A stretch of DNA of 64,000 nt from Thermoanaerobaculia bacterium. GTDB taxonomy: Bacteria; Acidobacteriota; Thermoanaerobaculia; UBA5066; Gp7-AA6. Below are positions 3,332-31,718 of this stretch, in pieces. Positions within the stretch are counted from its first letter, which is position 1. Each line of letters begins with the position of its first letter. Location of the stretch: NCBI GenBank assembly GCA_035500755.1, contig DATJXB010000227.1:2853-66852 (forward strand). Direction: 5' to 3'. The position numbers and the translations under genes are program-made. Under the pieces are notes generated by a model. That model saw only the letters and a list, made by a program, of their open reading frames with translations, ran no database searches and was not told where the DNA came from.

Positions 3332-3949
3332 TCATTTCTCTGACTTTTTCGTTCCGCGGTCCCCGGTGAGGCGCGAGAACGCGGTCTTTGCGACGGCCGC
3401 CAGCATCGCGTCGAGACGCCGGACCCCCGGGTCAGGCGCCATCGTCGCGCCGACCGTGAGGTCCGTTGCGTCCTTCTGCGCCTCGAGGATCCGCCCGCGA
3501 GTGGAGAAACCCGTTCCGGTGTTGACCGACGCGACGTCGACCGAGAACGCCCAATCGCCGACGCCGGCGACCTCGTCGCCCACCGCCATCGCGTTGGCCA
3601 CGGCATGGCGCTCCGGGTGAAGACTGCGATTGACGTCCTTGCCGACGCGGGCGTAGATCGACTGGACGTCCGCCTCGCTCCTGGCCTCGTGCGAAACCTC
3701 GAGCTTCACGACGAGCTGCTCGGTCGGGCTCGCGTGATCCGCTCGCGTGCCGTACTCGCAGACGCTTCCGGAGCCGGAGGACTCCAGCTGTCTTCCGAAG
3801 ATCGCGCCGACCTCCTCGGCAGTGAGGAGCAAACAGGCGCGATCGGATGGGGCCGCGGCCCGGTCTGCCGCCCTGCCGCAGGCCGACGCCAGGGCGCCGA
3901 CGACGCACGCGATCAAGACCCCCGCGACCACGGAGAAAGGCGATCTCAT
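3332..3949 (-). CDS. Lipoprotein of unknown function (205 aa)
   Basis: ATG 3949 with GGAGG upstream. MRSPFSVVAGVLIACVVGALASAC is a signal peptide plus lipobox. The rest (LLLTAEEVGAIFGRQLESSGSGSVCEYG...) has normal composition, unlike the track's upstream extension to 4267. Confidence 0.75.
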   Translation of the reverse strand: MRSPFSVVAGVLIACVVGALASACGRAADRAAAPSDRACLLLTAEEVGAIFGRQLESSGSGSVCEYGTRADHASPTEQLVVKLEVSHEARSEADVQSIYARVGKDVNRSLHPERHAVANAMAVGDEVAGVGDWAFSVDVASVNTGTGFSTRGRILEAQKDATDLTVGATMAPDPGVRRLDAMLAAVAKTAFSRLTGDRGTKKSEK

Positions 3950-4048
3950 CGGCGGACCTCCTTCGCCACGGGCAGAGTGAGCCCGCGGTCGGACGGAGCG
4001 TCGCCGCGGAGGGGCGCGCCGGTCCTTTCCGGTGGCGTCCGATTTGTC

Positions 4049-4061
4049 TTCTGAATTTCTG
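4049..4061. promoter_or_regulatory. Direct repeat TTCTG-AAT-TTCTG inside an AT-rich island between the regulator operon and the secreted-protein operon
   Basis: The sequence ttctgaatttctg lies in the locally AT-rich stretch 4041-4066 (gatttgtcttctgaatttctgggtaa). This is the only sizeable non-coding gap (3950-4089) in the 12-kb minus-strand cluster. Confidence 0.25.
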
Positions 4062-4089
4062 GGTAACGCGAGAGAGCCGAAGGAAGGGC

Positions 4090-6969
4090 TCAGGCGGCCG
4101 GCTTGCCTCGAGCGGCGCTTTCGGCCTCCCGGGCCGTCTGGCCATAGCCGGACGTCCGGGCTTCGCGGGCGACCGCGGACAGCGCCGCCAGGGCGTCCGC
4201 GTGCCTCGGTCCTTCCAGATCGATCTCGGCCTCGACGAGGCGAGCCTCGAGACCGTGGCCGACCCACTTCAGGCGCTCGGCCCGGCGCCGGGCTTCGGCC
4301 GCCAGGGCGCGGGCGCCCTCGACGTTGCCCGCCGCGGCCTCCACCCTCGCCGCGGTCAGGAGGACCTCGAGCACGGCCTCATTCTGGTTGCTCTCCGCCG
4401 CGAGCACGCGCGCCTTCCGCACGTCCTCTCGAGCCGCGTCGCGGCGCCCCAGCTCGAGCTCGGCGCGCGCCCGGGTCGAAAGCGCAATCGCCAGGTTTGC
4501 GGCCTGATGCTGATTCTCGAACTCCTTCACCGATTGCGCCGCGAGCGCGATCGCCTCCGCGTTTCGGCCCTGCACCCGCCGTAGCTGCGCGATCTGGATC
4601 CTGATTTCGGCCTGCCCGATCGTGTCGCCGGACTGCGCCAGGAGCGCGAGGGCCTTCGCGTACCGGCGATCCGCTTCTTCCAGGTTCCCGCGATCGAACT
4701 CGATGTTGCCGAGATCCTCGTGACGGCCGCCGATCGCGTCGGGGTCATCGAGCTTTTCGGCGACGTCGAGCGATTCGCGGTAGGCTTTTTCGGCTTCGTC
4801 GAGGCGGCCCTGCGCCCGGAAGGCGTCGGCGATGGCGTCGAGGCTGTAGGCCTCGTAGGCGCGATGTCCGATGTCGTGGCTGATCGAGAGCGCCTCTCCG
4901 TGCAGACGGGAAGCGCCCGCGAAATCGCCCTCCTGGACGAGGAAGTTCCCGAGAACGTCGAGCGCCCACGCGGTTCCGGCGCGGTCGTTCGTCTCGCGCC
5001 GCAGCGCGATGACGCGCTCCGCGTGCGCCCGGGCTGAGTCGGTTTTTCCCTGGAGCCATTCGACCAGACACAGGTCGGCGTAGGCGGTGCCGACCCCGGC
5101 CTTGTTGCCGATCGACTCGTAGGAGGCAAGTGCCTGGGCGTAGAGCCCGGCGGCGCCGTCGAGATCGCCGGCGTCGAATCGATCGTTTCCGATGCCGATC
5201 CGCGTCAGCGCGAGGCCGTTCACGTCGCCGTCCGCCTCGTAGAGGCGAGCCGCCTCGCGGCGGGCGTCGCGGCTGCGGTCGGTCATGCCGAGGCTCCCGG
5301 AGGCGCCCGCCTCCTGAATACGGGCTCGCGCGAGCAGGCCCGTCCGGCCGTCGGCCGCCGCCTTCTCGCCGGCACGGTGGGCGGCGGCGAGGGCCCGAGC
5401 GGAGTCGGAGAGCGCCGCGGCCGCGGAGGCCTCCGCCAGATCGAGGCGCGGATCGTCGCGTTCCGGCGACGGCATGCGGCGTAGACGGGCGATCGTTTCG
5501 AGCGCCTCCTTCGCCCGGCCTGCCGCCGTCTGGTCGGCCGCGAGCTTCAGCCCGTAGTCGAGATCGTCCGGAAAAAGCAGGACCAGACTTCGGTCGATCT
5601 CGACCGCGTGGTCCCAGCTCTTCTCGGCTTCCGCGAGACGGCTCTCGACGACCAGCCGATCTTCGCGAGAGAGTCCGCCGGAGGCCTCCGAAGCCCTCCG
5701 GGCTTCGGCGCGGGCGTTGTCGTCGTAGCCGAGGGCGGACCAGGCTCGCGAGAGAGCGAGGCGGACGAGCGGATTCGTCGGATCTTTCTCGGCGGCGGAC
5801 TGGAGGTCGTCCTTCGCCGTCTTCGCGTCGAGGCGGCGCAGGCGGTCGAGCCCCTCGGCGTACAGGCGGGCCGCCTCCGGATTCCGCGGCAGCGCCGCCG
5901 CGATCGAATCGGATTGCGCGCTGCTCGCCGGCGGGAGCCCGAGACGCGTCCGCAGCGACGCGCCGAGGGAGGCGATGAGGTCGAGCACGTCCGCCGCGGA
6001 GCCGGTCTGGGAGGCGGTCGCGAGCACTTCGCCGGTCGCCGCGTCCTGCACGACGACGTCGAAGCGCAGGCGTCCGTCGGGCGGCGCGGCCACGGCGAGG
6101 TAGGAGCCGGTAACGACGAGGTCGGATCCGAGGTGCCGGCGCAGCTGCGCGAGCGTCTCCGCCGAGAGCGTGCCCGCGGGGAGTGCGACGCGCTCGCGCG
6201 CGACGTCGTCCGCGGCGACGATGCGGATCGACTCGCCCGCGCCGAGCTCGGCGCCGATCATCTCCGTCGCGGCCGTCGAGACCCAGGCGGTCCCGTCGCG
6301 GGGCGCGAGGTCGCGGAACCCCAGCACGGCGAGGGAGCGCCGGGCGCGCGCCGGCGAGGGCGGCCTGGCCCCGGGAACGGCGTGCCTCGACGCGACCCAG
6401 GCGGCCAACGCGACGGCTGCGGCGGTGGCAACGCCGAGCCAGCGGCGCGTGCCGGAACGCTCCGCGGACGTGAGGGCCTGGGGCGCGGGTGCGGCCGGCA
6501 ACGGCGCGCCCTCCTCCGATGGCGCCGGTCTCGGGTCCGGCGGCGGGGGAGGCGCCGCGTCGCACGCCGGGCTGGCGGCGTCCACGCGCTCGGCCGGACC
6601 GATCCACCGGTACCCGACTTTCGGGACGGTCTCGATGTACCCGCCCTCGCCGGGGGCCTCGCCGAGCGCTTTGCGCAGCGACCAGATGTTCTTGGTGAGG
6701 TTCGCCTCCTCGACGACGAGCCCGGGCCAGATCTCCTGAAGGAGGCGCTCTTTCGTCACGAGGCGCCCGGCGTTCTCGAGCAGGAGGACGAGCGTGTCGA
6801 AGACTTTCGGGGTCAGGGGAACGGGGCGCCCGTCGCGCAGCAGTCGCCTCTCGCCGACCTCGAATCGGAAGGCTCCGAATCGGTAGCACACGCCGGGATC
6901 GGCTGGCATGGGAAGAGCCAATGATATCGAGACTTCGTCCGGCCCCGAAGGGCCGGCGGCCCGCGTCAC
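4090..6969 (-). CDS. Membrane-bound ToxR/CadC-like transcriptional regulator: OmpR-type winged helix, TM, periplasmic domain and TPR-like repeats (959 aa; alternative start ATG 6909)
   Basis: YRFGAFRFEVGERRLLRDGRPVPLTPKVFDTLVLLLENAGRLVTKERLLQEIWP...VPKVGYRW is a Trans_reg_C-type wHTH. A Pro-rich linker follows, then a TM helix around residues 177-197 (WLGVATAAAVALAAWV). Next is RSLAVLGFRDLAP...LVVTGSY (TolB-N-like), then long helical A/L/R-rich repeats. GTG 6969 overlaps the upstream stop (GTGA). Confidence 0.85.
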   Translation of the reverse strand: MTRAAGPSGPDEVSISLALPMPADPGVCYRFGAFRFEVGERRLLRDGRPVPLTPKVFDTLVLLLENAGRLVTKERLLQEIWPGLVVEEANLTKNIWSLRKALGEAPGEGGYIETVPKVGYRWIGPAERVDAASPACDAAPPPPPDPRPAPSEEGAPLPAAPAPQALTSAERSGTRRWLGVATAAAVALAAWVASRHAVPGARPPSPARARRSLAVLGFRDLAPRDGTAWVSTAATEMIGAELGAGESIRIVAADDVARERVALPAGTLSAETLAQLRRHLGSDLVVTGSYLAVAAPPDGRLRFDVVVQDAATGEVLATASQTGSAADVLDLIASLGASLRTRLGLPPASSAQSDSIAAALPRNPEAARLYAEGLDRLRRLDAKTAKDDLQSAAEKDPTNPLVRLALSRAWSALGYDDNARAEARRASEASGGLSREDRLVVESRLAEAEKSWDHAVEIDRSLVLLFPDDLDYGLKLAADQTAAGRAKEALETIARLRRMPSPERDDPRLDLAEASAAAALSDSARALAAAHRAGEKAAADGRTGLLARARIQEAGASGSLGMTDRSRDARREAARLYEADGDVNGLALTRIGIGNDRFDAGDLDGAAGLYAQALASYESIGNKAGVGTAYADLCLVEWLQGKTDSARAHAERVIALRRETNDRAGTAWALDVLGNFLVQEGDFAGASRLHGEALSISHDIGHRAYEAYSLDAIADAFRAQGRLDEAEKAYRESLDVAEKLDDPDAIGGRHEDLGNIEFDRGNLEEADRRYAKALALLAQSGDTIGQAEIRIQIAQLRRVQGRNAEAIALAAQSVKEFENQHQAANLAIALSTRARAELELGRRDAAREDVRKARVLAAESNQNEAVLEVLLTAARVEAAAGNVEGARALAAEARRRAERLKWVGHGLEARLVEAEIDLEGPRHADALAALSAVAREARTSGYGQTAREAESAARGKPAA

Positions 6970-7424
6970 CCTCGACGCAGGCGGTCGAGGATCCTCGTCG
7001 CAGTCTCCGCCTCGCCCACGCCGTCGAGCCTCGGAACGGAGGCGCGCAGGGCCGCCAGTCGTTCGGGCTCGGCGGCGAAATCGTGGGCGAGGAGCACCAG
7101 CACGCCGGCCGGCAGGTGCGGTGCGAGCGCGGCGAGGACGTAATAGCCCTGGTTCCGGGCGAGGTGATCGAGAAGGCGCTCCCGATCGCCGTCGAAGCGC
7201 GCGGCGAGCGCCGCCGTCTCGCCGACGAGCCTCTCGGGCGGCGTCCGGTCGAAGACGAGGTCGAGAAAGACCGCGTCGACGGGGCGCGCCGCGAGGATCC
7301 CGAGCGCGGCCGCGGCGTCGCCGGCCGCGAGGAGCTCGAGCGACGCGTCGCCGCCTCCCAGCCGGACGAAGGCGTCGCGGTACTCGGTGCCGTCCTCCAC
7401 GACGAGAACCGCGCGGCGGCTCAC
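6966..7424 (-). CDS. Stand-alone receiver-like protein, atypical (152 aa)
   Basis: GTG 7424 overlaps the upstream stop (GTGA). VSRRAVLVVEDGTEY...PVDAVFLDLVFD has the acidic pocket (E10 D11) and a putative acceptor D55. An insertion follows before GYYVLAAL...VLVLLAH. I saw no conserved beta5 Lys. Confidence 0.7.
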   Translation of the reverse strand: MSRRAVLVVEDGTEYRDAFVRLGGGDASLELLAAGDAAAALGILAARPVDAVFLDLVFDRTPPERLVGETAALAARFDGDRERLLDHLARNQGYYVLAALAPHLPAGVLVLLAHDFAAEPERLAALRASVPRLDGVGEAETATRILDRLRRG

Positions 7425-9919
7425 GCCGGTTTCTCCGAAGCCGGCAGCGCGATCGCGATGCCCTTGCGGAAGCCCGGCCGCGCGGACGCGACGACGTCGA
7501 TGGAGCCCTCGTGCCGCCGGAGGATGTCGGCGACGACGCCGAGCCCGCGATCGGACGGCCGATTCCGGATGTCGTCCCGCGTGAGGGCGCCGGGCAGATC
7601 GTCGTGCAGCACGATCGCCAGGCGCGCTTCGCCCGTCGCCGGGTCGCGGGTCGCGCGGGCGGCGAGGCCCAGACGGCCGGCCGAGAGGGCGTTGGCGAAG
7701 AGGTTGCGCCAGAGCGTCTCCCAGTCCGCCGGCGAGATCCGGACGAGGGGAAGCGCGTCGGCGGGAATCGTGTCGAGGAGCTCCAGCGCGGGCGCGTCGC
7801 GATCGGCTTCGGCGGCGACGTGGGCCAGGAGCGCCTGGAGCGCGTCGAGGCGGACGGGCAGCGACGCGGCGCGGTCGACGGTGCGCTCGATTTCGGCGCC
7901 GGACGCGAGCTGGAAGCAGCGCGCGGCGCGGCGCAGGAGACGGGTCGCGCGCCGGATCGCGCCGGGCGCCGATCCCCCGTCGCGGCAGAGGCGCAGCGCC
8001 CGGCGGCTCCGGCGCAGCGCCTTCACGCCCGAGTGGAGCATCGAGAAGACCGGGTCGCGGCGGCCGAGGTTCAAACGCACGCCGTCGGCGCGCGCGAGGT
8101 TCTCGAGAGCGGCAGACGCGTCTTCCGCTTCGGCGACGAGGCCGGGCGATCCCCCCTCCCCGTAGAGGCGCGAGACCAGGAGGCCCGCCGTCGCGCGCCG
8201 CGTCCCGGCGTCGCCACCGGCCAGACGCTCCGCGGCGTCGGCGAGGAGCAGGCCGCCGTGTTTGAGAGCCTCGTGGCGGAGGCGCCCGACGATGCGTCGG
8301 GCCGAGACGGCGCGGTCGGGATGTGCGGCGAGCCACTCGGCGAGCGTGAGGCCCGACCGGCGCCGATGTCGCGCGATCGCGACGCCGGCGAGGGCCACGG
8401 CGGCGAGGGTGGCGCCGACGAGCCAGCGGACCGAGCGGCGCCGGTCGAGGCGGGCGGCGGCTGCCGCCGCCTCCGATGCCCGCAAGCCGTCGGGAGCCTC
8501 GGCAAGGGAGCGGCGGTAGAGACCGAGAGCCGCGGCGTCGTCGCCGCGCCGCTCGGCGGCCTGGGCGAGGCGGAAGAGAGCCTCGGTCGAGCCGGCTTGT
8601 TCCGCTTTGCCCCAGGCCCGCATCGCCTCGTCCGCGCGGTCCGGGTCGCGCTCGAGCAGGAGGGCGAGAGACTCCCAGGTTGCCGCGCGGGCGGGGTCGG
8701 CCTGGAGGGCGCGTCCGAGAGCGCCTTCCGCCTCCCTCCACTCCGACCGGCGCTCGTGGATCGACGCGGCGAGCTCCGGCGCGCGCGCGAGCGTGGGATC
8801 GAGCCGCTCCGCCTCGGCGAGGAGGGCGAGCGCGGCGTCGAGCGACGCCGGGTCGCCGCGCGACGCGTACACCTGCGCCTTGCGCCAGCGGTCGACCGCG
8901 CCCGACGCGGGCTCTTCGGGTGCCGCGGCCGGTGCGGGTGAGAGCTCGGCGCTTCCCCGGCCGCGGCGCGACAGCGCCACGCGCAGCGGTTCGGCTTCCG
9001 CGCGCTCGCGCGGCGAGGCGCTGGCGAGGAACCGGTCGAGGCGCTCCGAGGCCGCGCTCGCGTCGCCATACTCCGCCCAGCGTCCGGCCGAGAGACGGAG
9101 CAGACGGCGCAGATCGGGGCGGAGGATCGACGCCCGATCGAGGTGGGCGAGCGACTCCTCCTTGGCGGCACGGTCGGGCTGCTCCCACTGGAGGTTCGCG
9201 AGGGCGATGAGGGCTTCGACGCGATCCGGTTCCGCGGCCAGCGCTTCGCGGCAGGCGCGAATCGCGGCGGCCGACCGGCCGGAGCGGGCCTCGACGGCGG
9301 AGAGCGCGAGGAGGGCCTCGACGTAGGACGGCGAGAGCGCGAGCGCCGCGCGGAGGCTCTCGCGCGCCTGCTTGAGGCGGCCCGCCGCGAGCGCCCGCTT
9401 GCCGTCGGCCAGCGCGAGGCGCGCCTCGATCGGCGGCCCCGAGGCGGGAGGGGCGATCGCGTCCGCCTGCGTCTCGAGCTCGAGGTCGGCCAGGCGCGGG
9501 GCGATCCACGCCGCGGTCGCGCCCTCCTTCGCGAGCGCCCGCGCCAGATCGGCGTAGCGAGCGGCGGCTTCCGTCCAGCGGCGCCGCTGCTCGGCGCGCC
9601 GGGAAAGCAGGAGGAGCTCGGGCGGCGAGAGGCGCGAGGGCTCGAGCTCGGCCGCGGCGGCGAGCAGGTCGCCGCCCTCCTCGACGTCGTCGGCCGCGAA
9701 CGCCAGGTCCGCCGCCCGCAGGGCGAGCGCCGGAGACGGGTCGAAGCGGCGCGCCGCGCGGAGGAGGCGCCGGGCCGCGGCGAGGTCTTCCGCCGCGAGC
9801 CGGGAGTCCGCTTCGGCCGAGAGCGACGCCTCGTCGGGCACGCAGTCGTTCGAGGCCGGCGTCGGCTCGGGAGGCGCCGCCGCCAGCGCGGCGCAGGCGA
9901 GGAACGCGGCGGCGATCAC
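7421..9919 (-). CDS. Sensor kinase-like protein: signal peptide, ~480-aa periplasmic TPR-like region, TM, His-containing helix, HATPase-like domain (832 aa)
   Basis: GTG 9919 overlaps the EBP stop (GTGA). Signal peptide VIAAAFLACAALAAAPP. TPR-like helices (SPSYVEALLALSAVEARSGRSAAAIRACREALAAEPDRVEALIALANL...). TM helix WLVGATLAAVALAGVAIA at about residues 499-516. RLRHEALKH carries H549 (codon 8275-8273). C-terminal N box WRNLFANAL, G1 DDLPG, G2 RGLGVVADI. The track ORF 7421..11425 is a false 5' extension through the EBP gene. Confidence 0.75.
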   Translation of the reverse strand: MIAAAFLACAALAAAPPEPTPASNDCVPDEASLSAEADSRLAAEDLAAARRLLRAARRFDPSPALALRAADLAFAADDVEEGGDLLAAAAELEPSRLSPPELLLLSRRAEQRRRWTEAAARYADLARALAKEGATAAWIAPRLADLELETQADAIAPPASGPPIEARLALADGKRALAAGRLKQARESLRAALALSPSYVEALLALSAVEARSGRSAAAIRACREALAAEPDRVEALIALANLQWEQPDRAAKEESLAHLDRASILRPDLRRLLRLSAGRWAEYGDASAASERLDRFLASASPRERAEAEPLRVALSRRGRGSAELSPAPAAAPEEPASGAVDRWRKAQVYASRGDPASLDAALALLAEAERLDPTLARAPELAASIHERRSEWREAEGALGRALQADPARAATWESLALLLERDPDRADEAMRAWGKAEQAGSTEALFRLAQAAERRGDDAAALGLYRRSLAEAPDGLRASEAAAAAARLDRRRSVRWLVGATLAAVALAGVAIARHRRRSGLTLAEWLAAHPDRAVSARRIVGRLRHEALKHGGLLLADAAERLAGGDAGTRRATAGLLVSRLYGEGGSPGLVAEAEDASAALENLARADGVRLNLGRRDPVFSMLHSGVKALRRSRRALRLCRDGGSAPGAIRRATRLLRRAARCFQLASGAEIERTVDRAASLPVRLDALQALLAHVAAEADRDAPALELLDTIPADALPLVRISPADWETLWRNLFANALSAGRLGLAARATRDPATGEARLAIVLHDDLPGALTRDDIRNRPSDRGLGVVADILRRHEGSIDVVASARPGFRKGIAIALPASEKPA

Positions 9920-11538
9920 CGCTCGCCGCGCGCGGAAAGTCCTAGCCGGTTGAACCGCAGCCGGACGGCCCGCGCCTCCCGCCGGGAGCCGGTCATCGCC
10001 TCCGCCATCTTCGCGAAGTCGCCCCCCGTCTCCTGAAACAACGCCCGAAGCGCCGCTCTTTCGAGCTCGCGGCGAAACGCCGCGACACTCGGTGCCCGCG
10101 GGCGCTCGAGCGCCAGGCTCGCCCGAGGCGCGTCTTCGGGGCGCGCGCCGGCGAGGAGGTCGAAGAGCATCCGGGCGTCGAGACGCACGACGGCGCGTCC
10201 CGACCCGTCGACCGAGGCGCCGGCGCCCGCGTACACCGCGGCGGCGAGCGCGTCGTGGACGACCATCTCGAATTGCCGGACGTTGCCCGGCCACGGGTGT
10301 CGCTCGATGGCCGTCCAGGCTTTGCGGGGGAGGACGAAGACGACGGCCGCCTCGGTCCGCCGCACCGCCTCTTCCGAGAGGGCGAGGGCGAAGGCCCGGT
10401 CCGGCTCGGGACCCCCGGCGGCGCGGACGAGGGAAGCGATGGCGCGCGCGTGGCGTGGGTCGCCGAAGAACGCGTCCGCGGTCACGCGCGCGAGCTCCGG
10501 CAGGTCCTCCCGTCGCTCGGCGAGCGGCGGGATCTCGAGCGCGAGCGAGGGGTTCAGGCGCATCAACAAGTCGGCCCGCAGGCGGCCCTCGCCCCCGGGC
10601 CGGCGCCGGTCGGCGTTCGACGCGGCGACGACGCGGGCCGTGTGCGCGATCTCCGAGGCGCTTCCCACCCGGCGGATGAGGCCATCGTTGAGCGCCGTCA
10701 GCAGCATCTTCTGAGCGTCCGGCGCCAGGTTTTCGACTTCGTCGAGGAAGAGCGTGCCTCCGGCCGCGGCCTCGAAGACGCCGGGCCGGTCGAGGGTTGC
10801 TCCGGTGAACGCCCCGCGGACGGAGCCGAAGAGCGCGGCCTGGAGAAGCCCTTCGGGAACTGTGGCGCAGTCGAACGCGACGAAAGCGCCGGTTCGGCCG
10901 GATAGGGGATGGATGACGTCGCGGACCAGAAGGCTCTTTCCGGTTCCGGTCGGTCCGGTCACCAGCAGCGGCATCGGCGTTGGCGCAAGGGCGGTGACTT
11001 TGCGGCGCAGCGCCCGCATCGCGGCGCTGCCGCCCCAGAAAAAGCGCCCCGTTCGGGCGGGCACGTCGCGCTCGGCGAGGATGCGGCGCAGGGCCGCGGC
11101 GACGCCGGCGGCGCCCGACTCGTCGCCGGCCGCGGCGTACGTGAACGCATCGGCCCGAAGCGCCAGCGCCTCCTCCTCGAAGGGGATGTCCTCGTACGCC
11201 GTCGTCAGGAGAACCGGGAGGTCGGGCCAGCGCCGGCGCAGACGCTCGAGGACGAAGAGTCCCTGGCGCTCGCGGCGCTCCCGCCGCAGGCGCTTTCCGG
11301 CGGCGGTCTCGCCGAGCGCGCGATGGTCGGGGAGGAGCTCTTCGTCCGGCAGGTCGAAGCGCAGGTCGAGCACGGCGGCGTCGGGAGCCCGAGGGCCCCC
11401 GAGCAGCGGCTCGGCCTCGCGCCACGAGCGCGCCGGGAGAAGGTCGATCTCCGGGGCGAGGCGCGCCAGCAGCTCGGCGAGGCGCGGCTGGTCGTCGAGG
11501 ACGAGAGCGCGCGGCCGGCGGCGAACGGTCCTCGTCAC
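9916..11538 (-). CDS. Sigma-54-dependent transcriptional activator (NtrC family EBP) with atypical N-terminal receiver (540 aa)
   Basis: GTG 11538 overlaps the upstream stop (GTGA). Receiver motifs ALVLDDQ...AAVLDLRFD (D58). Walker A GPTGTGKS, the sigma-54 contact loop VRGAFTGA, Walker B LFLDEV, PWPGNVRQ, and a C-terminal Fis-type HTH FAKMAEAMTGSRREARAVRLRFNRLGL. Confidence 0.9.
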   Translation of the reverse strand: MTRTVRRRPRALVLDDQPRLAELLARLAPEIDLLPARSWREAEPLLGGPRAPDAAVLDLRFDLPDEELLPDHRALGETAAGKRLRRERRERQGLFVLERLRRRWPDLPVLLTTAYEDIPFEEEALALRADAFTYAAAGDESGAAGVAAALRRILAERDVPARTGRFFWGGSAAMRALRRKVTALAPTPMPLLVTGPTGTGKSLLVRDVIHPLSGRTGAFVAFDCATVPEGLLQAALFGSVRGAFTGATLDRPGVFEAAAGGTLFLDEVENLAPDAQKMLLTALNDGLIRRVGSASEIAHTARVVAASNADRRRPGGEGRLRADLLMRLNPSLALEIPPLAERREDLPELARVTADAFFGDPRHARAIASLVRAAGGPEPDRAFALALSEEAVRRTEAAVVFVLPRKAWTAIERHPWPGNVRQFEMVVHDALAAAVYAGAGASVDGSGRAVVRLDARMLFDLLAGARPEDAPRASLALERPRAPSVAAFRRELERAALRALFQETGGDFAKMAEAMTGSRREARAVRLRFNRLGLSARGER

Positions 11539-11942
11539 GGCCGCGCCGCCTTCGCCGCCGCGGAGAGCTCGCGGCAGCGCTCGGCGACTTCCCGCGTCAG
11601 ACCGTCGAGGCGCTCGAGCCCGGGTCGATCCAGCGCGTCCAGCCGCGCGGCGAGTCTCCGGATCTGGTCGATTGCGCGGCCGAGCTCCGCAAGCCGGTCG
11701 GCGAGGGCGCCGGCTTGAAAGAGGCCGCCCTGCTCCTGCCTCCAGGCGTCGAAGAGCGTCGCCGCGGCCGTCGACCCCGACCGGTCGCGCCGCGTCTCGA
11801 GGACGTCGGCGCGCAGGCGGGCGCGCAGGGCTTCGGTGTCCGCTTCGAGGACGTCGGGCGCCGAGAGCCGCACGGACTTGCCGACGTCGTGCCGCAGCCG
11901 CTCGGCCGCCCGGACCGCTTCCGCCGAGAGTCGCGCGTCCAT
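11535..11942 (-). CDS. Small all-helical protein of unknown function, first gene of the signalling operon (135 aa)
   Basis: ATG 11942. High GC3 and normal composition: MDARLSAEAVRAAERLRHDVGKSVRLSAPDVLEADTEALRARLRADVLE...LDGLTREVAERCRELSAAAKAARP. There is a single early His (H18, codon 11891-11889). The stop overlaps the EBP start. Confidence 0.7.
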   Translation of the reverse strand: MDARLSAEAVRAAERLRHDVGKSVRLSAPDVLEADTEALRARLRADVLETRRDRSGSTAAATLFDAWRQEQGGLFQAGALADRLAELGRAIDQIRRLAARLDALDRPGLERLDGLTREVAERCRELSAAAKAARP

Positions 11943-12055
11943 GTCGTCCCGGCAAGGATACGCCCGCGGAGCGCCCGTCGTGTCATCAATGCTCCGATTC
12001 GGATGACCGAAATGCCAAAACAGAGCATCAAGGGGACGCCTGGGCGCTCTTTTCC

Positions 12056-12071
12056 GGGCACGCCGTTTGAA
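12056..12071 (+). promoter_or_regulatory. Candidate sigma-54 (-24/-12) promoter upstream of the SPFH gene
   Basis: GGGCACG-ccgt-TTGAA compared with consensus TGGCACG-N4-TTGCW. The GG-to-(-12) spacing is correct. Mismatches are at the first T and at the conserved -12 C (A here). It lies 36 nt before ATG 12107 and is divergent from an operon encoding a sigma-54 activator. Confidence 0.3.
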
Positions 12072-12106
12072 ATCCCCTGGGACGAGGTGACGAAAGGAGA
12101 AGCGCC

Positions 12107-13402
12107 ATGGACGAGTCCCTTCCCGACGACGGCTCCCCTCCGGAGGCGAAATCGAGCGGTCCTCTTCGGCTCTTCGACCGCTGGCGTTCCCGATGGCCCG
12201 GACCGGGCGGCGGCGTTCGAGTCCCGTGGAAACAGTTACGGCGGTTTCTTGCCGTCGTCCTTCTCGTCGGGGCGGGCGTCCTGGCGTGGAAGGGAGCCCG
12301 GAAGAGCTTCCAGGCCGTGGCGCCGGGACACGTCGGCGTCTGCGTCAACCGGTTCACCGGCTCGCTCGAGGCCCTGGAACCCGGGACGCACTTCCGGCCG
12401 CCGGCCTTCTTCGAGATCCATCCGGTGCGGATCTCGGACCAGCTGCTCTCGGCCGACGCGGGCGCCTTCAGCGTGACGACGAAAGAGGGCGTGATCGCGC
12501 GGATCACGGTGCAGGCCCGCTGGGCCGTGGACCGCAAGCAGCTGTTGTCGAAGTGGGCGGCCCTGCCGCCCCAGCCCGCGCGCGAGCTCGTCGCGCCCGT
12601 CCTCTTCGCGGCGTTCCGGGCGGCCGCGCCGCGCTACGAAGTGACGCGCCTGATCTCCGAGAAGCGCGAGGAGCTCGCGTCGATCGCCGCGGTGTCGGCC
12701 CGCGAGCGCCTCGCCGAGAGCGGCGTCGTCCTGAAAGAGGTCCTGATCGGCGACCTGGTGCTGCCGGAGGAGTTCGAGAAGGGCCGGATCGCGATGGTCG
12801 ACGAGGTCCAGTCGACCGAGCGCCTCGACGTCACGCTCAAGCGCAAGGCGAAGGAGGTCGAGGAGACCCGGCTGACGGCCGAGGCGCAGAAGGCGCGCCA
12901 GGTCGAGGAGGCCGAGGCGTCGGCCGCGCAGCGGGTCATCGCGGCCAGGGGCGAGGCCGAGGCGATGAAGCACGTCCTCGAGCTCAAGGCCAAGCAGATC
13001 GAGCAGAGGAAGCTCGAGGCCGAAGCCGAGCGTCAACAGGTCGTCGAGCGCGCCCACGCGGCGGCCGAGGCGTCGCGCATCCAGACGCTCGCCGACGTCG
13101 ACCGCCGCAAGGCGATGGCGGACGCCGAAGCGTACGCGACGCGGGTGACCGCGCTCGCCGACTTCGAAAAGCTCGAGCGCGAGGCCGTGCTCGTGTCGGC
13201 CAACCCGCTGCTGATCCCGAAGGCGTTCGCCGACCGGCTGTCGGACCGCGTCCAGGTGATCCTGACGCCGTCGATCGGCGCCGAACAGCTGACCGGCGAA
13301 ATCTTCAAGCGCGTCGCCAACGGGGAGCCGCCGCTCGCGCCGGCTCCCGATCCCCCCGCGACCGTGTCGGCGAGCAAGCGCTCGTCGGCGGCCGTCCACT
13401 GA
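12107..13402 (+). CDS. SPFH/Band-7 (prohibitin/HflC-like) membrane protein with long coiled-coil tail (431 aa)
   Basis: AAAGGAGA SD. TM helix LRRFLAVVLLVGAGVLAW. SPFH core VAPGHVGVCVNRFTGSLEALEPGTHFRPPAFFEIHPVRISDQ...FSVTTKEGVIARITVQARW. E/A/K/R-rich coiled coil EAEASAAQRVIAARGEAEAMKHVLELKAKQIEQRKLEAEAERQQ. Confidence 0.85.
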   Translation: MDESLPDDGSPPEAKSSGPLRLFDRWRSRWPGPGGGVRVPWKQLRRFLAVVLLVGAGVLAWKGARKSFQAVAPGHVGVCVNRFTGSLEALEPGTHFRPPAFFEIHPVRISDQLLSADAGAFSVTTKEGVIARITVQARWAVDRKQLLSKWAALPPQPARELVAPVLFAAFRAAAPRYEVTRLISEKREELASIAAVSARERLAESGVVLKEVLIGDLVLPEEFEKGRIAMVDEVQSTERLDVTLKRKAKEVEETRLTAEAQKARQVEEAEASAAQRVIAARGEAEAMKHVLELKAKQIEQRKLEAEAERQQVVERAHAAAEASRIQTLADVDRRKAMADAEAYATRVTALADFEKLEREAVLVSANPLLIPKAFADRLSDRVQVILTPSIGAEQLTGEIFKRVANGEPPLAPAPDPPATVSASKRSSAAVH

Positions 13403-13439
13403 GGAATCCAGGACGCCTCGCGTCTTCGAGGAGGAAATC

Positions 13440-14903
13440 ATGAAAGAGCTGGTCCGGACCCTGATGCCCCGCTTCGTGATCGTTCTGCTCGCCTGCACCG
13501 GATTCGCCGTGTCGTGCGCCCTCGCGTTCGGCCAGACGCGGGGCGAGCCCGAAGGCTCCGACGTCTTCGTGACGCCGCGCGAGGCGTTGCTGCGCGAGAA
13601 GCCGTCGCCCAACGCCCGGGTGCTCGACCGCCCGGCTCAGGGAACGCGCCTTTCTCTCGTGGCCTCGCGCGACCGCTACCTGAAGGTGGCCTCGGCCGGC
13701 TGCGAGGGCTGGATCGCCCGCGACGTCGCGATTCTGTTCCCGCCGGGCGAGGCGGCCACCCGCGAAATGGTGGTCGTCGGGAAGAGCTTCGGGAAGACCG
13801 ACGCGAGCCGCCGCCTCGCGGTGGCCGTCCTCGTTCGGGCCTCCGAGCGCCTGCGCGAGGCGAGGACGCCGGATCCCGACGTCGAAGTGCTCCTCGGCGA
13901 GACGGCCGAGGGGCTGGCCGAGCGAGCGGGTCCCTATCCTGCCGGCGCCGGGCTCGTCGAAGAGACGGGCGCGTCGGGCACTCGCGGGCGCTACGACGGT
14001 TCCGCCTTCCGGCGCGCCGCGGAGATGCTCGCGAAGGACGCGAGCCCCGACCATGCGCGGACTCGCGAACGCGCGGCCGCGGGCCTCCTCCGGTTCCAGT
14101 ATCCGGTGCGGGGTGCGTCTTATCCCGTCCTGCTCCAGGAGTCGGCGGCCTGGCTCGCGCTCGTCGAGACCGCCGACGACGCGGCGGTGCTCGCCGCCGC
14201 CGCCGAGCGTGCCGGGGGCGCCGCGCTCGCCCTCGGCCGGTTCGAGCTCGCGCTCGGCAAGACCGAGGACATCGGCAGGCTGCGCGACCGGCTGTTCGCC
14301 GCGGGGCAGCGGCTCAACACCCTCGCACCCGATCGCCTCGACGGCCGCCGGCTGATCTCGCGCGCCGCCGTGCTCGGCTCCATGCGCGGCAACGGAACGC
14401 CGTCGTTCCCTCAGCAGGCGAGCGTGGTCACGGGCTCCCGGCAGCGCGTCGTCCGCATCGACGGGAAGCTCGGCGCCCTTCAAGTGACCGTCGAGACGCA
14501 GGCGGGCGCCACGAAGGACCTCCAGGCGCATCGGACGACCGTGCCGATCCTGCCGGTGCCCGGCTCCCTCCGCGTGTCGCCGGACGGACGCTCGGCCGCG
14601 TGGGTCGAGGTGCTGTCGTCCTCGCGTCTGGTGCCCGTCATGACGTCGCTCGACCGCGACGAGGAGGTGCGCGAAATCGCGTTCCTCTCGACCGGGCGCC
14701 CGCTGCGCGACCGGGAGCTCGCGCACGTCGTCAGCTCGCTCTCGGGTTTCTCCCACGACGGCCAGCGTCTGGGGCTCGTGATCGAAGCGTGGAACGAGAC
14801 GCCCGGCCCCGCGCCCCGGTACTCGGTGGTCTCCGTCGCGACCGGGGAGCTCCTCTTCGAAACGTCGGAGGACATGAAGAGCTACCAGCGGCTGCTTCGC
14901 TGA
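13440..14903 (+). CDS. Secreted protein with N-terminal SH3-like module, helical middle region and PD40-like C-terminus (487 aa)
   Basis: Strong SD GAGGAGG. Signal peptide MKELVRTLMPRFVIVLLACTGFAVSCALAFG. VTPREALLREKPSPNARVLDRPAQGTRLSLVASRDRYLKVASAGCEGWIARDV resembles bacterial SH3. Later LRVSPDGRSAAWVEV and SGFSHDGQRLGLV resemble TolB/PD40 SPDG repeats. Confidence 0.75.
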   Translation: MKELVRTLMPRFVIVLLACTGFAVSCALAFGQTRGEPEGSDVFVTPREALLREKPSPNARVLDRPAQGTRLSLVASRDRYLKVASAGCEGWIARDVAILFPPGEAATREMVVVGKSFGKTDASRRLAVAVLVRASERLREARTPDPDVEVLLGETAEGLAERAGPYPAGAGLVEETGASGTRGRYDGSAFRRAAEMLAKDASPDHARTRERAAAGLLRFQYPVRGASYPVLLQESAAWLALVETADDAAVLAAAAERAGGAALALGRFELALGKTEDIGRLRDRLFAAGQRLNTLAPDRLDGRRLISRAAVLGSMRGNGTPSFPQQASVVTGSRQRVVRIDGKLGALQVTVETQAGATKDLQAHRTTVPILPVPGSLRVSPDGRSAAWVEVLSSSRLVPVMTSLDRDEEVREIAFLSTGRPLRDRELAHVVSSLSGFSHDGQRLGLVIEAWNETPGPAPRYSVVSVATGELLFETSEDMKSYQRLLR

Positions 14904-14954: not shown

Positions 14955-15497
14955 ATGCGCTGCCTCCCTCGGATCCTCGTCGCCGCCTGCCTCGGACTGA
15001 TCCCGGTCCTGCTTCGCGCCCAGGACGCCGCCGCTTCCCCGGAGTCGGAGCCCGTCGCGGCGCCGGCACCTCCGCCGGTCGAACCGGCGCCGGGGGCCGA
15101 CGCGGTCCTCACGGCCCCGTCGGATCCTCCGCCGTCGAGCGGCGGGGAAGACGCCGCGGGAACGCTCGAGGCGCCGGCGGCAACGGACGCCTCGCCGTCG
15201 GAAACGGCGCCGGCGGCACCGGCCTCGAGCGCCGTCGACATCGAGTCGCTGCCTTCGTTCCGGCCGTCCGTCCCGTCCGTCGACGTCGCGACCGCATCGC
15301 TCAAGACCGTCGAAGAAGTTTCGGCGGGCCGCGCGAGCAACTGGTTCTTCCTGGCGGTGCTCGGACTGGCCGCCGTTCTCATCGTCACGCGGACGACCCG
15401 CGCGAAGTCGACGGAGACGGTCTCGATCCAGGGCGACCGCACGGCCGGCCCGTTTCCCGCGCCCGCCCCGGGGCCGCCGGTCGTGCGCCGCTCCTGA
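14955..15497 (+). CDS. Pro/Ala-rich secreted protein with C-terminal TM anchor (180 aa)
   Basis: Signal peptide MRCLPRILVAACLGLIPVLLRAQ. Low-complexity P/A/S region. TM helix WFFLAVLGLAAVLIV followed by basic TRTTRAK. Confidence 0.6.
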   Translation: MRCLPRILVAACLGLIPVLLRAQDAAASPESEPVAAPAPPPVEPAPGADAVLTAPSDPPPSSGGEDAAGTLEAPAATDASPSETAPAAPASSAVDIESLPSFRPSVPSVDVATASLKTVEEVSAGRASNWFFLAVLGLAAVLIVTRTTRAKSTETVSIQGDRTAGPFPAPAPGPPVVRRS

Positions 15498-23623: not shown

Positions 23624-23696
23624 GTCTCTTCGTCGAAGCAGGATTCGTGCCGGTGCCCGTGATTTCCGGGGAGGCCGGGCGAACCACCCCGTTGAG

Positions 23697-31653: not shown

Positions 31654-31718
31654 GAAACCCCTCCCAGAGGCGCCGGGCGGCGCCCGTCAGGGCATTTTAG
31701 AACAGTTCCGAGGCCGCC

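What the first reader, a model, noticed from the sequence alone, without database searches (positions are those of the whole stretch)
4090..11942. Five signalling genes joined by four consecutive GTGA overlaps: possible split His-Asp-His-Asp relay ending in a sigma-54 activator
Minus-strand order from 11942 to 4090 is as follows.
(1) A 135-aa all-helical protein with one early His (H18) in RLRHDVGK.
(2) An NtrC-type sigma-54 activator (receiver D58, GPTGTGKS, GAFTGA, Fis HTH).
(3) An 832-aa protein: signal peptide, ~480-aa periplasmic TPR-like region, TM, RLRHEALKH (H549), then HATPase-like N/G1/G2 boxes.
(4) A 152-aa stand-alone receiver-like protein (D55).
(5) A 959-aa ToxR/CadC-like wHTH-TM-periplasmic-TPR regulator.
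Every junction is the tetranucleotide GTGA (plus-strand tcac at 11535-11538, 9916-9919, 7421-7424 and 6966-6969). That implies tight translational coupling and fixed stoichiometry. The set comprises one kinase-like ATPase, two receivers, one small His-bearing helical protein, two different DNA-binding outputs and two separate periplasmic TPR sensors. This is not a textbook two-component layout. The parts list fits a four-step phosphorelay, but that is inferred from motifs alone.
Basis: partly seen in the sequence, partly recalled or inferred. Interest (0 to 1): 0.75.

Follow-up and report, generated by a model that had tools for sequence, protein, structure and literature searches.

The report
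Conserved four-gene sigma-54 signalling cassette
Four of the five genes form a conserved, undescribed bacterial signalling unit: a kinase-like membrane sensor, two unusual receiver proteins, a small His-bearing protein and a sigma-54 activator. It probably switches on a neighbouring membrane-scaffold (SPFH) operon, while the fifth gene is only a neighbour.

Summary
The five minus-strand genes and all four GTGA junctions exist as described. Comparative data split them. g1-g2-g3-g4 (11942→6966) are syntenic in every related locus long enough to show it. That covers about 50 Thermoanaerobaculia (Acidobacteriota) species and, in diverged form, one complete locus from another uncultured lineage. 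The CadC-like g5 is adjacent only in this species and probably starts at an ATG 60 nt further downstream.

H18, H549, D55 and D58 are invariant. The g3 cytoplasmic part models confidently and matches histidine kinases by fold, with intact N/G1/G2 boxes. Its conserved His lies about 190 residues before the N box. g4 and the g2 receiver are paralogues. Both share a conserved ~30-aa insertion after the phospho-Asp and both lack the catalytic Lys, which makes them "pseudo-receivers" by strict definition. g1 is a confident five-helix bundle with no HPt, Spo0B or other detectable relative.

I also found the likely output. Two CTCC-N5-GGAG palindromes and a conserved sigma-54-type promoter (GGCAC-N6-TGAA, 12057-12071) face the divergent Band_7/SPFH operon.

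A His-Asp-His-Asp relay fits best, but the order of transfer is inferred. This is a new variant of a known kind, of moderate interest.

The parts
11535..11942 (-). g1: 135-aa helical protein with an invariant His18-Asp19 dyad (motif RL[KR]HD[VL]GK). It is the candidate phosphotransfer or accessory protein of the activator g2.
   Evidence: ORF and GC3. H18, D19, R25, D46 and D113 are invariant in 33 orthologues. AF2 gives pLDDT 92 and pTM 0.85 for a five-helix bundle. There is no significant PDB fold or sequence match and no Pfam Hpt hit in 31 members. A 4-nt overlap with g2 is found in 33/33 loci.
9916..11538 (-). g2: 540-aa sigma-54 enhancer-binding protein. It has an atypical receiver (D15, D16, D58, T113; no Lys), an AAA+ domain (GPTGTGKS, GAFTGA) and a C-terminal Fis-like helix-turn-helix.
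   Evidence: Pfam Sigma54_activat E=1.3e-45. Response_reg scores only 19.6 bits against a cut-off of 30.2. A profile search against PDB hits Spo0F, LuxO and NtrC receivers. Orthologues are 62-78% identical.
7421..9919 (-). g3: 832-aa sensor. It has an N-terminal hydrophobic segment, a periplasmic TPR region, one TM helix (about residues 497-515), a helical region carrying the invariant R-x-x-H549-E-x-x-K-H-G-G motif, and a divergent HATPase_c (CA) domain.
   Evidence: Pfam finds TPR only. AF2 of residues 494-832 gives pLDDT 88.5. The top 50 Foldseek hits are histidine kinases and close relatives such as ZraS, CpxA and HK853 (E from 1e-7, probability 1.0). N739, N743, D773, G792 and G794 are invariant. 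HATPase_c is hit weakly in 3 of 15 homologues and in several distant ones.
6966..7424 (-). g4: 152-aa stand-alone atypical receiver (E10, D11, D55; no Thr/Ser, no Lys). It is a paralogue of the g2 receiver and has the same ~30-aa insertion after the phospho-Asp.
   Evidence: Response_reg is hit below threshold in 40 of 44 family members. All PDB profile hits are receivers except one de novo design, with D55 aligned to the phospho-Asp. hhalign against the g2 receiver gives probability 98.2% and E=3.4e-14. A 4-nt overlap with g3 is found in 39/41 loci.
11992..12004 (.). Distal upstream activator site: the palindrome CTCCGATTCGGAT (family consensus CTCCGAAATGGAG).
   Evidence: In most relatives that carry the promoter it starts 64-66 bp before the -24 GG; three loci have a single site at -54/-55.
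12013..12025 (.). Proximal upstream activator site. It is degenerate in this window (TGCCAAAACAGAG) but a perfect CTCC-N5-GGAG in many relatives, 20 bp from the distal site.
   Evidence: Its position at -44 relative to the promoter is conserved. Only 5 of the 8 outer positions match in the window.
12057..12071 (+). Sigma-54-type promoter GGCACGCCGTTTGAA. The -24 GGCAC and the spacing are canonical, but the -12 element reads TTGA instead of TTGC. It lies 36 nt upstream of the Band_7 start codon.
   Evidence: It is the only match in 64 kb, against 0.18 expected. The same element occurs in 36 of 56 fetched loci; in the two Thermoanaerobaculia clades it sits at a consistent position, while at least one further match (L054) looks like chance.
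12107..13402 (+). Divergent target gene: a 431-aa SPFH/Band_7 membrane protein.
   Evidence: Pfam Band_7 E=2.4e-17. It is found in 29 fetched loci, two pairs of which are the same contig: adjacent to g1 in clade 1 and 1.5-5 kb upstream in clade 2.
13440..14903 (+). Second gene of the probable target operon: a 487-aa secreted protein with a weak bacterial SH3 signal.
   Evidence: It is conserved next to Band_7 in 25 fetched loci. Pfam SH3_3 E=0.002, below threshold.
4090..6909 (-). g5: a CadC/ToxR-like one-component regulator (winged helix, TM, TPR). It is a neighbour, not a member of the conserved cassette. Its probable start is the ATG at 6909, not the GTG at 6969.
   Evidence: Trans_reg_C E=1.9e-16 and TPR_12/TPR_MalT. 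It has no homologue next to the cassette in 52 other loci. It is called as 939 aa in the near-identical strain L053.

Best explanation
g1-g4 form one operon that encodes a self-contained, two-component-type signalling cassette. g5 is an unrelated neighbour.

Proposed mechanism:
1. The periplasmic TPR domain of g3 senses an envelope or periplasmic cue.
2. The kinase-like module of g3 uses ATP to phosphorylate the invariant His549.
3. The phosphoryl group moves to Asp55 of the stand-alone receiver g4.
4. It then moves to His18 of the small helical protein g1.
5. It ends on Asp58 of the receiver of g2.
6. Phosphorylated g2 assembles on two CTCC-N5-GGAG palindromes (11992-12025). It activates sigma-54 RNA polymerase at the GGCAC-N6-TGAA promoter (12057-12071), which transcribes the divergent SPFH/Band_7 operon (12107-14903 and perhaps beyond).

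Shown here: gene order and its conservation, domain identities by profile and fold, invariance of the four candidate phospho-sites and of the ATP-binding boxes, paralogy of the two receivers, and conservation of the promoter and palindromes.

Inferred: that g3 autophosphorylates, that any phosphotransfer occurs, the order of transfer, that g2 binds the palindromes, and the nature of the signal.

My confidence that g1-g4 are a single TCS-type signalling unit ending in sigma-54-dependent transcription is about 0.85. That the Band_7 promoter is its target, about 0.7. That the route is exactly H549→D55→H18→D58, about 0.4. The score given is for this last, full statement.
For: Synteny and coupling:
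- The four genes are syntenic in every Thermoanaerobaculia locus long enough.
- They are also syntenic in the one distant-lineage locus that covers the whole cassette (L056); two others show parts of it.
- The tightest coupling pairs g3 with g4 (39/41) and g1 with g2 (33/33). That is the pairing expected for kinase plus first receiver and phosphotransferase plus final regulator.

Candidate phospho-sites and kinase features:
- H549, E550, K553 and H554 are invariant in 40/40 orthologues. The motif H-[ED]-x-x-K-H occurs in at least 105 of 111 full-length representatives from the exhaustive search.
- The CA fold matches histidine kinases, and the N, G1 and G2 residues are invariant.
- g4 D55 and g2 D58 align to the phospho-Asp of solved receivers, and the acidic pairs are invariant.
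- The g1 dyad H18-D19 is invariant in 33/33 and is conserved in the distant clade as VKHDLGK. From my own recollection, an acidic residue after the His also follows the phospho-His in DHp-type H boxes and in Spo0B.

Output:
- g2 is a complete sigma-54 activator.
- The promoter and paired palindromes are conserved in position in 15 or more loci. In a second clade they face both Band_7 and the cassette's own operon.
- A canonical GGCAC-N5-TTGCT promoter precedes the cassette operon in the distant locus L056.
Against: - g1 has no sequence or fold similarity to HPt, Spo0B or ChpT. There is no Hpt hit in 31 members, and the best Foldseek E-value is 0.3, to generic helical bundles.
- H18 sits near the end of helix 1, next to a conserved loop, with other invariant acidic residues (E33, D46, D113). 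This could equally be a catalytic or binding site.
- Both receivers lack the active-site Lys and g4 also lacks the Thr/Ser. By the definition in PMC12632262 they are therefore pseudo-receivers, many of which are not regulated by Asp phosphorylation.
- The conserved His of g3 lies about 190 residues before the N box. The profile alignment to ZraS places the DHp-equivalent helices closer to the CA domain, where no His is conserved.
- No fused (hybrid) forms that would fix the order were seen among the 150 best representatives.
- No experiment exists.
Confidence: 0.4

Rival explanations
1. A branched ordinary two-component system. g3 phosphorylates the g2 receiver directly, as ZraS does ZraR or NtrB does NtrC. 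The paralogous single-domain receiver g4 competes for the same phosphoryl groups, acting as a phosphate sink or kinase modulator. g1 is an accessory regulator of g2, for example an aspartyl-phosphate phosphatase of the Spo0E/CheZ kind, a connector or an anti-activator, and uses its invariant His-Asp and acidic residues catalytically or for binding.
For: - g2 and g3 are adjacent in all loci.
- The best structural and profile match of g3 is ZraS, the kinase of a sigma-54 activator.
- g4 and the g2 receiver are close paralogues, as expected for competitors.
- g1 lacks any HPt or Spo0B signature and has a cluster of invariant H, D and E residues next to a conserved loop.
- From general knowledge, simple systems are far commoner than relays.
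Against: - The tightest gene coupling is g3-g4 and g1-g2, not g2-g3.
- The alpha-1 regions of g4 (GTEYVDAF) and g2 (QPRTAELL) differ, which argues against one shared docking partner.
- This model does not require an invariant His in g1.
Confidence: 0.35
2. A switch that does not depend on Asp phosphorylation. The two Lys-less receiver-like domains are true pseudo-receivers controlled by protein-protein contacts or a ligand. g3 acts as an ATP-dependent scaffold or a kinase with another substrate. g1 is an adaptor. Output through g2 and sigma-54 is unchanged.
For: - The catalytic Lys is absent in both receivers and the Thr/Ser is absent in g4.
- Both score below the Pfam Response_reg threshold.
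- A conserved, Arg-rich ~30-aa insertion lies at the active-site loop.
- The His of g3 is in a non-canonical position.
- PMC12632262 describes such pseudo-receiver mechanisms.
Against: - The phospho-acceptor Asp and both metal-binding acidic residues are invariant across phyla. That is hard to explain without phosphoryl or Mg chemistry.
- The ATP-binding residues of g3 are invariant.
- PMC12632262 notes that substitutions at T or K do not necessarily abolish phosphorylation.
Confidence: 0.15
3. g5 is a second, translationally coupled output of the same pathway, so the system has two DNA-binding outputs and two TPR sensors.
For: g5 is adjacent on the same strand, and a GTG overlaps the g4 stop codon. 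Both g3 and g5 carry TPR regions.
Against: - No g5 homologue lies next to the cassette in 52 other loci; it is adjacent only in the near-identical strain.
- The gene caller starts it 60 nt further downstream, at an ATG.
- An AT-rich -10-like box lies in the 56-nt gap.
- In other genomes g4 is typically the last gene, followed by convergent genes.
Confidence: 0.05

Closest known systems
Vibrio quorum-sensing relay (LuxN/LuxQ/CqsS → LuxU → LuxO)
   Same: It is a His-Asp-His-Asp relay ending in a receiver-AAA+-HTH sigma-54 activator, with the small His protein encoded next to the activator gene. LuxO is among the best NCBIfam and PDB matches of g2.
   Different: In Vibrio the first receiver is fused to the kinase (hybrid kinase), whereas here it is a separate protein. 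LuxU is a canonical HPt four-helix bundle, whereas g1 has no HPt signature. The LuxO receiver has the full active-site quintet, whereas g2 lacks the Lys and carries a 30-aa insertion.
Bacillus sporulation phosphorelay (KinA → Spo0F → Spo0B → Spo0A)
   Same: It has four separate proteins with the same logical parts. Spo0F is the best PDB sequence match of the g2 receiver. From my recollection, the phospho-His of Spo0B is also followed by Asp (RHD).
   Different: Spo0B is a dimeric DHp hairpin plus a pseudo-CA domain, whereas g1 is predicted to be a monomeric five-helix bundle. The output, Spo0A, is not a sigma-54 activator. The Bacillus genes are not in one operon.
ZraS/ZraR and NtrB/NtrC-type two-component systems
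   Same: They pair a membrane or soluble histidine kinase with a sigma-54 activator encoded side by side. ZraS is the top fold and profile match of g3.
   Different: They have only two components. Their H box is a canonical HisKA about 110 residues before the N box, and their receivers are canonical. g3 falls below Pfam thresholds for HATPase_c and has no HisKA hit.
Phage-shock (Psp) response: PspF-PspA
   Same: A sigma-54 activator controls a membrane-maintenance protein from a divergent promoter, and a small all-helical protein is encoded with the activator system.
   Different: PspF has no receiver and is controlled by direct PspA binding. The target here is an SPFH/Band_7 protein, not PspA. 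g1 shows no PspA similarity. The functional analogy is speculative.
Myxococcus RedCDEF four-component system (from my own knowledge, not checked here)
   Same: It is a four-gene operon with a kinase, receiver-only proteins and a kinase-like phosphotransfer protein that together form a non-textbook relay.
   Different: It has different domain types and no sigma-54 activator in the operon. No homology was tested.

Membership tests
Histidine kinase (DHp + HATPase_c) | CA domain with the GHKL alpha/beta fold | tested here: met
   AF2 pLDDT 88.5. The order of secondary-structure elements matches a CA domain. The top 50 Foldseek hits are histidine kinases and close relatives, with probability 1.0.
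Histidine kinase (DHp + HATPase_c) | Conserved N box Asn, G1 Asp and G2 Gly-x-Gly for ATP/Mg binding | tested here: met
   N739, N743, D773, G792 and G794 are invariant in 40 orthologues. The equivalent residues are invariant in the distant clade. The ATP lid is very short.
Histidine kinase (DHp + HATPase_c) | Pfam HATPase_c and HisKA models above the gathering score | tested here: not met
   The window protein has no hit. There are sub-threshold HATPase_c hits in 3 of 15 close homologues. Of three distant homologues with hits, one marginally reaches the cut-off (27.0 against 26.4 bits). No HisKA-type hit was found anywhere.
Histidine kinase (DHp + HATPase_c) | Phospho-acceptor His on the DHp helix about 110 residues before the N box | tested here: inconclusive
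   The invariant His549, in the H-box-like motif RHExxKH, lies about 190 residues before the N box, on the first helix after the TM segment. No His is conserved at the canonical distance.
Histidine kinase (DHp + HATPase_c) | Autophosphorylation on His | not testable with these tools
   Needs biochemistry.
Response-regulator receiver domain (g2 N-terminus, g4) | Recognisable homology to receivers | tested here: met
   Profile searches against PDB return receivers (Spo0F E=2e-5 for g2; all but one of the weak g4 hits are receivers). Forty of 44 g4 family members hit Response_reg. However, scores are below the Pfam cut-off: 19.6 and 16 bits against 30.2.
Response-regulator receiver domain (g2 N-terminus, g4) | Acidic pair (DD) and phospho-acceptor Asp | tested here: met
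   g2 D15 and D16 are kept in 37/38 and D58 in 38/38. g4 E10, D11 and D55 are kept in 48/48.
Response-regulator receiver domain (g2 N-terminus, g4) | Conserved Thr/Ser at the end of beta-4 | tested here: inconclusive
   g2 T113 is invariant, so the feature is met there. g4 has Leu/Ala-Tyr at the aligned position, so it is not met there.
Response-regulator receiver domain (g2 N-terminus, g4) | Conserved Lys at the end of beta-5 | tested here: not met
   The g2 position aligned to the LuxO Lys is Ala or Thr in all 38 sequences, with no Lys or Arg in the following residues. No conserved Lys was found in the corresponding region of g4. By PMC12632262 both are therefore pseudo-receivers.
HPt histidine phosphotransfer domain (Pfam Hpt) | Sequence or fold match to HPt; HxxKG motif on an exposed helix of a four-helix bundle | tested here: not met
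   No Hpt hit in any of 31 members at E<=1. No HPt structure appears among the top 50 Foldseek hits, and the best E-value is 0.3. The motif is HD[VL]GK, not HxxKG. The fold is a helical bundle, which is compatible but not specific.
Spo0B/ChpT-type phosphotransferase | Dimeric DHp hairpin plus a C-terminal pseudo-CA alpha/beta domain | tested here: not met
   g1 has 135 aa and is all-helical apart from a short hairpin. It has no alpha/beta domain and no PDB sequence hits.
Sigma-54 enhancer-binding protein | Sigma54_activat AAA+ domain with Walker A and the GAFTGA loop | tested here: met
   Pfam E=1.3e-45. GPTGTGKS and GAFTGA are present.
Sigma-54 enhancer-binding protein | C-terminal Fis-type HTH (Pfam HTH_8) | tested here: inconclusive
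   No HTH_8 hit at E<=0.1. The last ~45 residues resemble the pattern by eye and look similar in the one relative inspected, L022.
Sigma-54-dependent promoter | -24 GG and -12 GC elements with canonical spacing (TGGCAC-N5-TTGCW) | tested here: inconclusive
   The GGCAC and the spacing are canonical, but the -12 element is TTGA/GTGA in nearly all Thermoanaerobaculia loci. The distant locus L056 has a canonical TTGCT. Canonical GG/GC sites exist elsewhere in the window. Function was not tested.
ToxR/CadC-like membrane one-component regulator (g5) | N-terminal OmpR-type winged helix, then TM, then a periplasmic sensor | tested here: met
   Trans_reg_C at residues 47-121, a hydrophobic segment near residues 178-196, and a TPR_12/TPR_MalT C-terminal region. 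It is not linked to the cassette in other genomes.

The most novel reading that the evidence does not exclude
g1 is the founding member of a new structural class of histidine phosphotransfer protein, unrelated to both HPt and Spo0B/ChpT. The g4/g2 receivers represent a Lys-less receiver lineage in which residues of the conserved Arg-rich insertion take over the role of the catalytic Lys. Together with a kinase whose phospho-His sits on a separate membrane-proximal helical bundle (a CheA-like separation of His and dimerisation domains), this would be a distinct, phylum-spanning branch of His-Asp phosphorelay. It would also use a non-canonical (-12 A) sigma-54 promoter to control an SPFH membrane-scaffold response.
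Probability: 0.3. Interest if true: 0.7.

Novelty: new variant of a known kind. Interest (0 to 1): 0.5.

Why it matters
If the cassette works as proposed, it adds a compact, operon-encoded four-protein phosphorelay to the short list of known ones. Every component is divergent enough to escape Pfam and NCBIfam models.

It would show that receiver domains can keep the Asp and the Mg-binding pair for phosphotransfer while losing the "essential" Lys. It would define a new small phosphotransfer or accessory protein family. It would also give a first regulatory handle on SPFH/Band_7 proteins in Acidobacteriota, a dominant but little-studied soil phylum.

The conserved promoter and palindromes make the output directly testable. 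If it turns out to be a branched ordinary two-component system, it is a useful but unremarkable annotation of four hypothetical protein families.

Tried and rejected
- **g1 as a paralogue of the His-bearing helix region of g3** (both read RLRH[DE]). BLASTP was insignificant and hhalign gave probability 0.2%. Rejected.
- **g1 as a minimal HD-domain phosphohydrolase**, because LHDxGK is the classic HD motif. There is no upstream His, no Pfam HD hit in 31 members and no HD-domain structure among the Foldseek hits. Rejected, although a metal or catalytic site formed by H18, D19, E33, D46 and D113 is not excluded.
- **g1 as HPt, Spo0B or PspA.** No support.
- **Sequence-only search of the g3 cytoplasmic domain against PDB.** The single sequence gave nothing. 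The profile gave only ZraS at E=0.14. Fold search was needed.
- **Defence-system check.** PADLOC hit only the generic AAA+ region of g2 and the TPR of g5.
- **The GC-rich hairpin after the g4 stop as a terminator.** It folds no better than shuffled sequence, z = -0.45.
- **Generic sigma-70 and terminator scan of 3600-12200.** Uninformative.
- **CTCCG-N4-GGAG search over the whole window.** Not enriched: 51 matches against 68 expected. The palindromes are supported by positional conservation, not by counts.
- **Rosetta-stone fusions** (kinase-receiver or g1-g2). None seen among the 150 best representatives. This is judged from protein lengths and match positions only.
- **Literature searches** for a described equivalent found none.

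Full report
**Observation**

The window is about 70-78% G+C. Five minus-strand ORFs occupy 11942→4090 exactly as described. Each has third-position G+C of 0.87-0.91, and the high-GC3 frame switches at the proposed junctions.

**Domain content**

- Pfam and NCBIfam recognise a full sigma-54 activator core in g2 (Sigma54_activat, E=1.3e-45). Its receiver scores only 19.6 bits.
- g3 hits TPR repeats only, with no HisKA or HATPase_c.
- g4 gives only a 16-bit Response_reg signal.
- g1 hits nothing meaningful.
- g5 has Trans_reg_C plus TPR_12/TPR_MalT.

**Distribution and synteny**

The g3 cytoplasmic part (residues 494-832) has only 22 close homologues among 5.8 billion proteins. A scan of one genome per species found 50 loci, all in metagenome-assembled Acidobacteriota, most of them labelled Thermoanaerobaculia.

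tblastn of the five window proteins against all loci shows g1, g2, g3 and g4 in the same order in every locus that extends far enough. g5 is never there. The few apparent g1 gaps are filled by an HMM search.

A near-identical strain (g1 99% identical) has the same five genes. Its gene caller starts g5 at an ATG 60 nt further downstream, 56 nt after the g4 stop. In the window that interval contains an AT-rich TATCAT box 13 nt before the ATG.

Start-codon positions in the orthologues give a 4-nt overlap for g1/g2 in 33/33 loci, for g3/g4 in 39/41, and for g2/g3 in only 18/38.

Conclusion: the unit has four genes. Two junctions are strongly conserved overlaps, one is variable, and the g4/g5 "overlap" is most likely an artefact of taking the longest ORF.

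An exhaustive profile search finds 434 cluster representatives (E<=1e-3). Many are 850-1000 aa TPR proteins from other uncultured lineages, labelled Deltaproteobacteria, Oligoflexia and Kiritimatiellia. One such contig (L056) carries g1-, g2-, g3- and g4-like genes in the same order; two others show the g3-g4 or g2-g3-g4 part.

**g3**

AlphaFold2 with the family alignment gives a confident model (pLDDT 88.5). Its C-terminal ~120 residues have the strand and helix order of a histidine-kinase CA domain, with a very short ATP lid. The top 50 Foldseek hits are histidine kinases and close relatives (ZraS, CpxA, LvrB, HK853, DesK and others; E from 1e-7, probability 1.0).

The N-box Asn residues, the G1 Asp and the G2 Gly-x-Gly are invariant in 40 orthologues. 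His549 sits in the motif R-L-x-H-E-x-x-K-H-G-G, which is also invariant. In the wider family the motif reads IRHEVLKHNT, and H-[ED]-x-x-K-H occurs in at least 105 of 111 full-length representatives. From my own knowledge, it resembles a HisKA H box (H-E-hydrophobic-basic).

However, this His lies on the first helix after the membrane, about 190 residues before the N box. The only profile alignment to a solved kinase (ZraS, E=0.14) places the DHp-equivalent helices nearer the CA domain, where no His is conserved. So g3 is kinase-like by fold and by ATP-site conservation, but the geometry of its His is non-canonical. It could resemble CheA, where the His domain is separate from the dimerisation domain. 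I could not inspect coordinates.

**g4 and the g2 receiver**

Profile searches against PDB return receivers almost exclusively. D55 and D58 align to the phospho-Asp. Forty of 44 g4 family members give sub-threshold Response_reg hits.

The two families are paralogues over their full length (hhalign probability 98.2%, E=3.4e-14). This includes a conserved ~30-residue insertion directly after the phospho-Asp, which is rich in invariant Arg in g2. The acidic pair and the Asp are invariant, and g2 keeps the Thr.

The position aligned to the catalytic Lys is Ala or Thr in all g2 orthologues. g4 has neither the Thr/Ser nor a conserved Lys. By the definition of PMC12632262 both are "pseudo-receivers". 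The same paper notes that substitutions at T or K need not abolish phosphorylation.

**g1**

His18 and Asp19 are invariant in 33 orthologues, as are R25, D46 and D113. The distant clade reads VKHDLGK. AF2 predicts a compact five-helix bundle (pLDDT 92, pTM 0.85) with His18 near the end of helix 1.

There is no Hpt or other Pfam family in 31 members, no PDB sequence match, and no significant fold match. The best Foldseek E-value is 0.3, to generic bundles. It is not related to the helical region of g3.

g1 is therefore a new family. Its invariant His makes it a candidate phosphotransfer protein, but nothing ties it to known ones.

**Output**

The 164-bp region between g1 and the divergent gene contains GGCACGCCGTTTGAA (12057-12071, plus strand). 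This is the only match in the window, against 0.18 expected by chance. The -24 GGCAC and the spacing are canonical for sigma-54, but the -12 element is TTGA rather than TTGC. It lies 36 nt before the start of a Band_7/SPFH gene.

The same element is aligned in the relatives. In most of them it is preceded, at fixed distances of -64 and -44, by two palindromes CTCC-N5-GGAG set 20 bp apart. In the window these are 11992-12004 (good) and 12013-12025 (degenerate).

Band_7 and a following 487-aa secreted protein are found near the cassette in 29 and 25 fetched loci, two pairs of which are the same contig.

In a second Thermoanaerobaculia clade, the same promoter type faces a 507-aa secreted-protein gene that is followed directly by g1-g4. 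Where Band_7 is divergent, a second such promoter faces it. In the distant locus L056, a canonical GGCAC-N5-TTGCT precedes a secreted-protein gene followed by g1-g4.

The most economical reading is that g2 binds the palindromes and activates sigma-54 transcription of the SPFH operon here. In other lineages it would also activate its own operon.

**Mechanism**

The parts, their universal co-occurrence, the invariant His/Asp/His/Asp residues and the pairing of overlaps (g3 with g4, g1 with g2) fit a four-step relay, H549→D55→H18→D58. The relay would end in sigma-54 activation.

The main rival is a branched ordinary system: g3→g2 directly, g4 as a sink, and g1 as a phosphatase or modulator. A minor rival is a pseudo-receiver switch that does not use phosphorylation.

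I give these about 0.4, 0.35 and 0.15. None can be separated further without complex modelling or biochemistry.

**Comparison and novelty**

The closest logical analogues are the Vibrio LuxU-LuxO relay and the Bacillus Spo0F-Spo0B-Spo0A relay. The closest structural relative of the sensor is ZraS. The cassette fails several family-membership tests:
- no HPt signature in g1;
- no catalytic Lys in either receiver;
- no canonical His-to-N-box spacing in g3;
- no HisKA hit, and HATPase_c below threshold in the window protein;
- no -12 GC in the promoter.

Literature searches found no description of it. I rate it a new variant of a known kind. It is interesting to two-component specialists and useful for annotating Acidobacteriota, but it is not categorically new. 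Interest is 0.5.

Noticed in passing
window 31735-31750 (-) and 23637-23652 (-): There are two canonical sigma-54-type sites with GG at -24 and GC at -12 (CGGCACGCATCCTGCA and CGGCACGAATCCTGCT). The first lies about 49 nt upstream of a 172-aa TPR protein gene (31168-31686, minus strand). So this genome appears to use canonical -12 GC promoters elsewhere, which makes the -12 A of the Band_7 promoter a regulon-specific feature.
   Followed up: partly
window 11955-11960 (-) and 6921-6926 (-); relatives: AT-rich -10-like boxes lie 12-13 nt upstream of start codons. TATCCT precedes the g1 ATG and TATCAT precedes the ATG 6909 of g5. Clade-2 relatives have GATAAT 8 nt before the g1 ATG. This suggests constitutive, nearly leaderless transcripts for the cassette and an independent promoter for g5.
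   Followed up: no
window 6939-6956 (-): A GC-rich hairpin with a TTCG tetraloop (CCGGCCC-TTCG-GGGCCGG) follows the g4 stop codon directly. It folds no better than shuffled sequence (z = -0.45), so it is weak evidence for a terminator.
   Followed up: yes
L022 4804-6327 (+) and L056 1213-2940 (+): In other lineages a large secreted protein gene sits between the sigma-54 promoter and g1. It is 507 aa with no Pfam hit in L022, and 575 aa with a faint Reg_prop/beta-propeller signal in L056. It is absent at this position in the window's clade. It may be a periplasmic partner or ligand of the g3 TPR domain.
   Followed up: partly
window 14955-15497 and 15592-16173 (+): A 180-aa secreted protein and a DUF4337 protein follow the Band_7 and 487-aa genes on the same strand. 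They were not detected next to the cassette in other loci at E<=1e-5, so their membership of the target operon is uncertain.
   Followed up: partly
L001, L002/L011, L044, L049: Several long-read MAG contigs show g2 or g3 split over different frames (multiple tblastn segments). This is most likely caused by assembly indels. It explains why public gene calls for these proteins are truncated to 312-521 aa instead of about 830.
   Followed up: partly
window 7421-9919 (-), loop near residues 612-622: A motif R-L-N-L-x-x-[KR]-D-P, in a loop between two helices of the g3 cytoplasmic region, is nearly invariant in both the close and the distant families. It has no assigned role.
   Followed up: no
window 3332-3949 (-) and downstream, via L053: In the near-identical strain, g5 is followed on the same strand by small genes and by two genes with weak SLH (S-layer homology) hits. 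This suggests that g5 belongs to a different, envelope-related neighbourhood.
   Followed up: no
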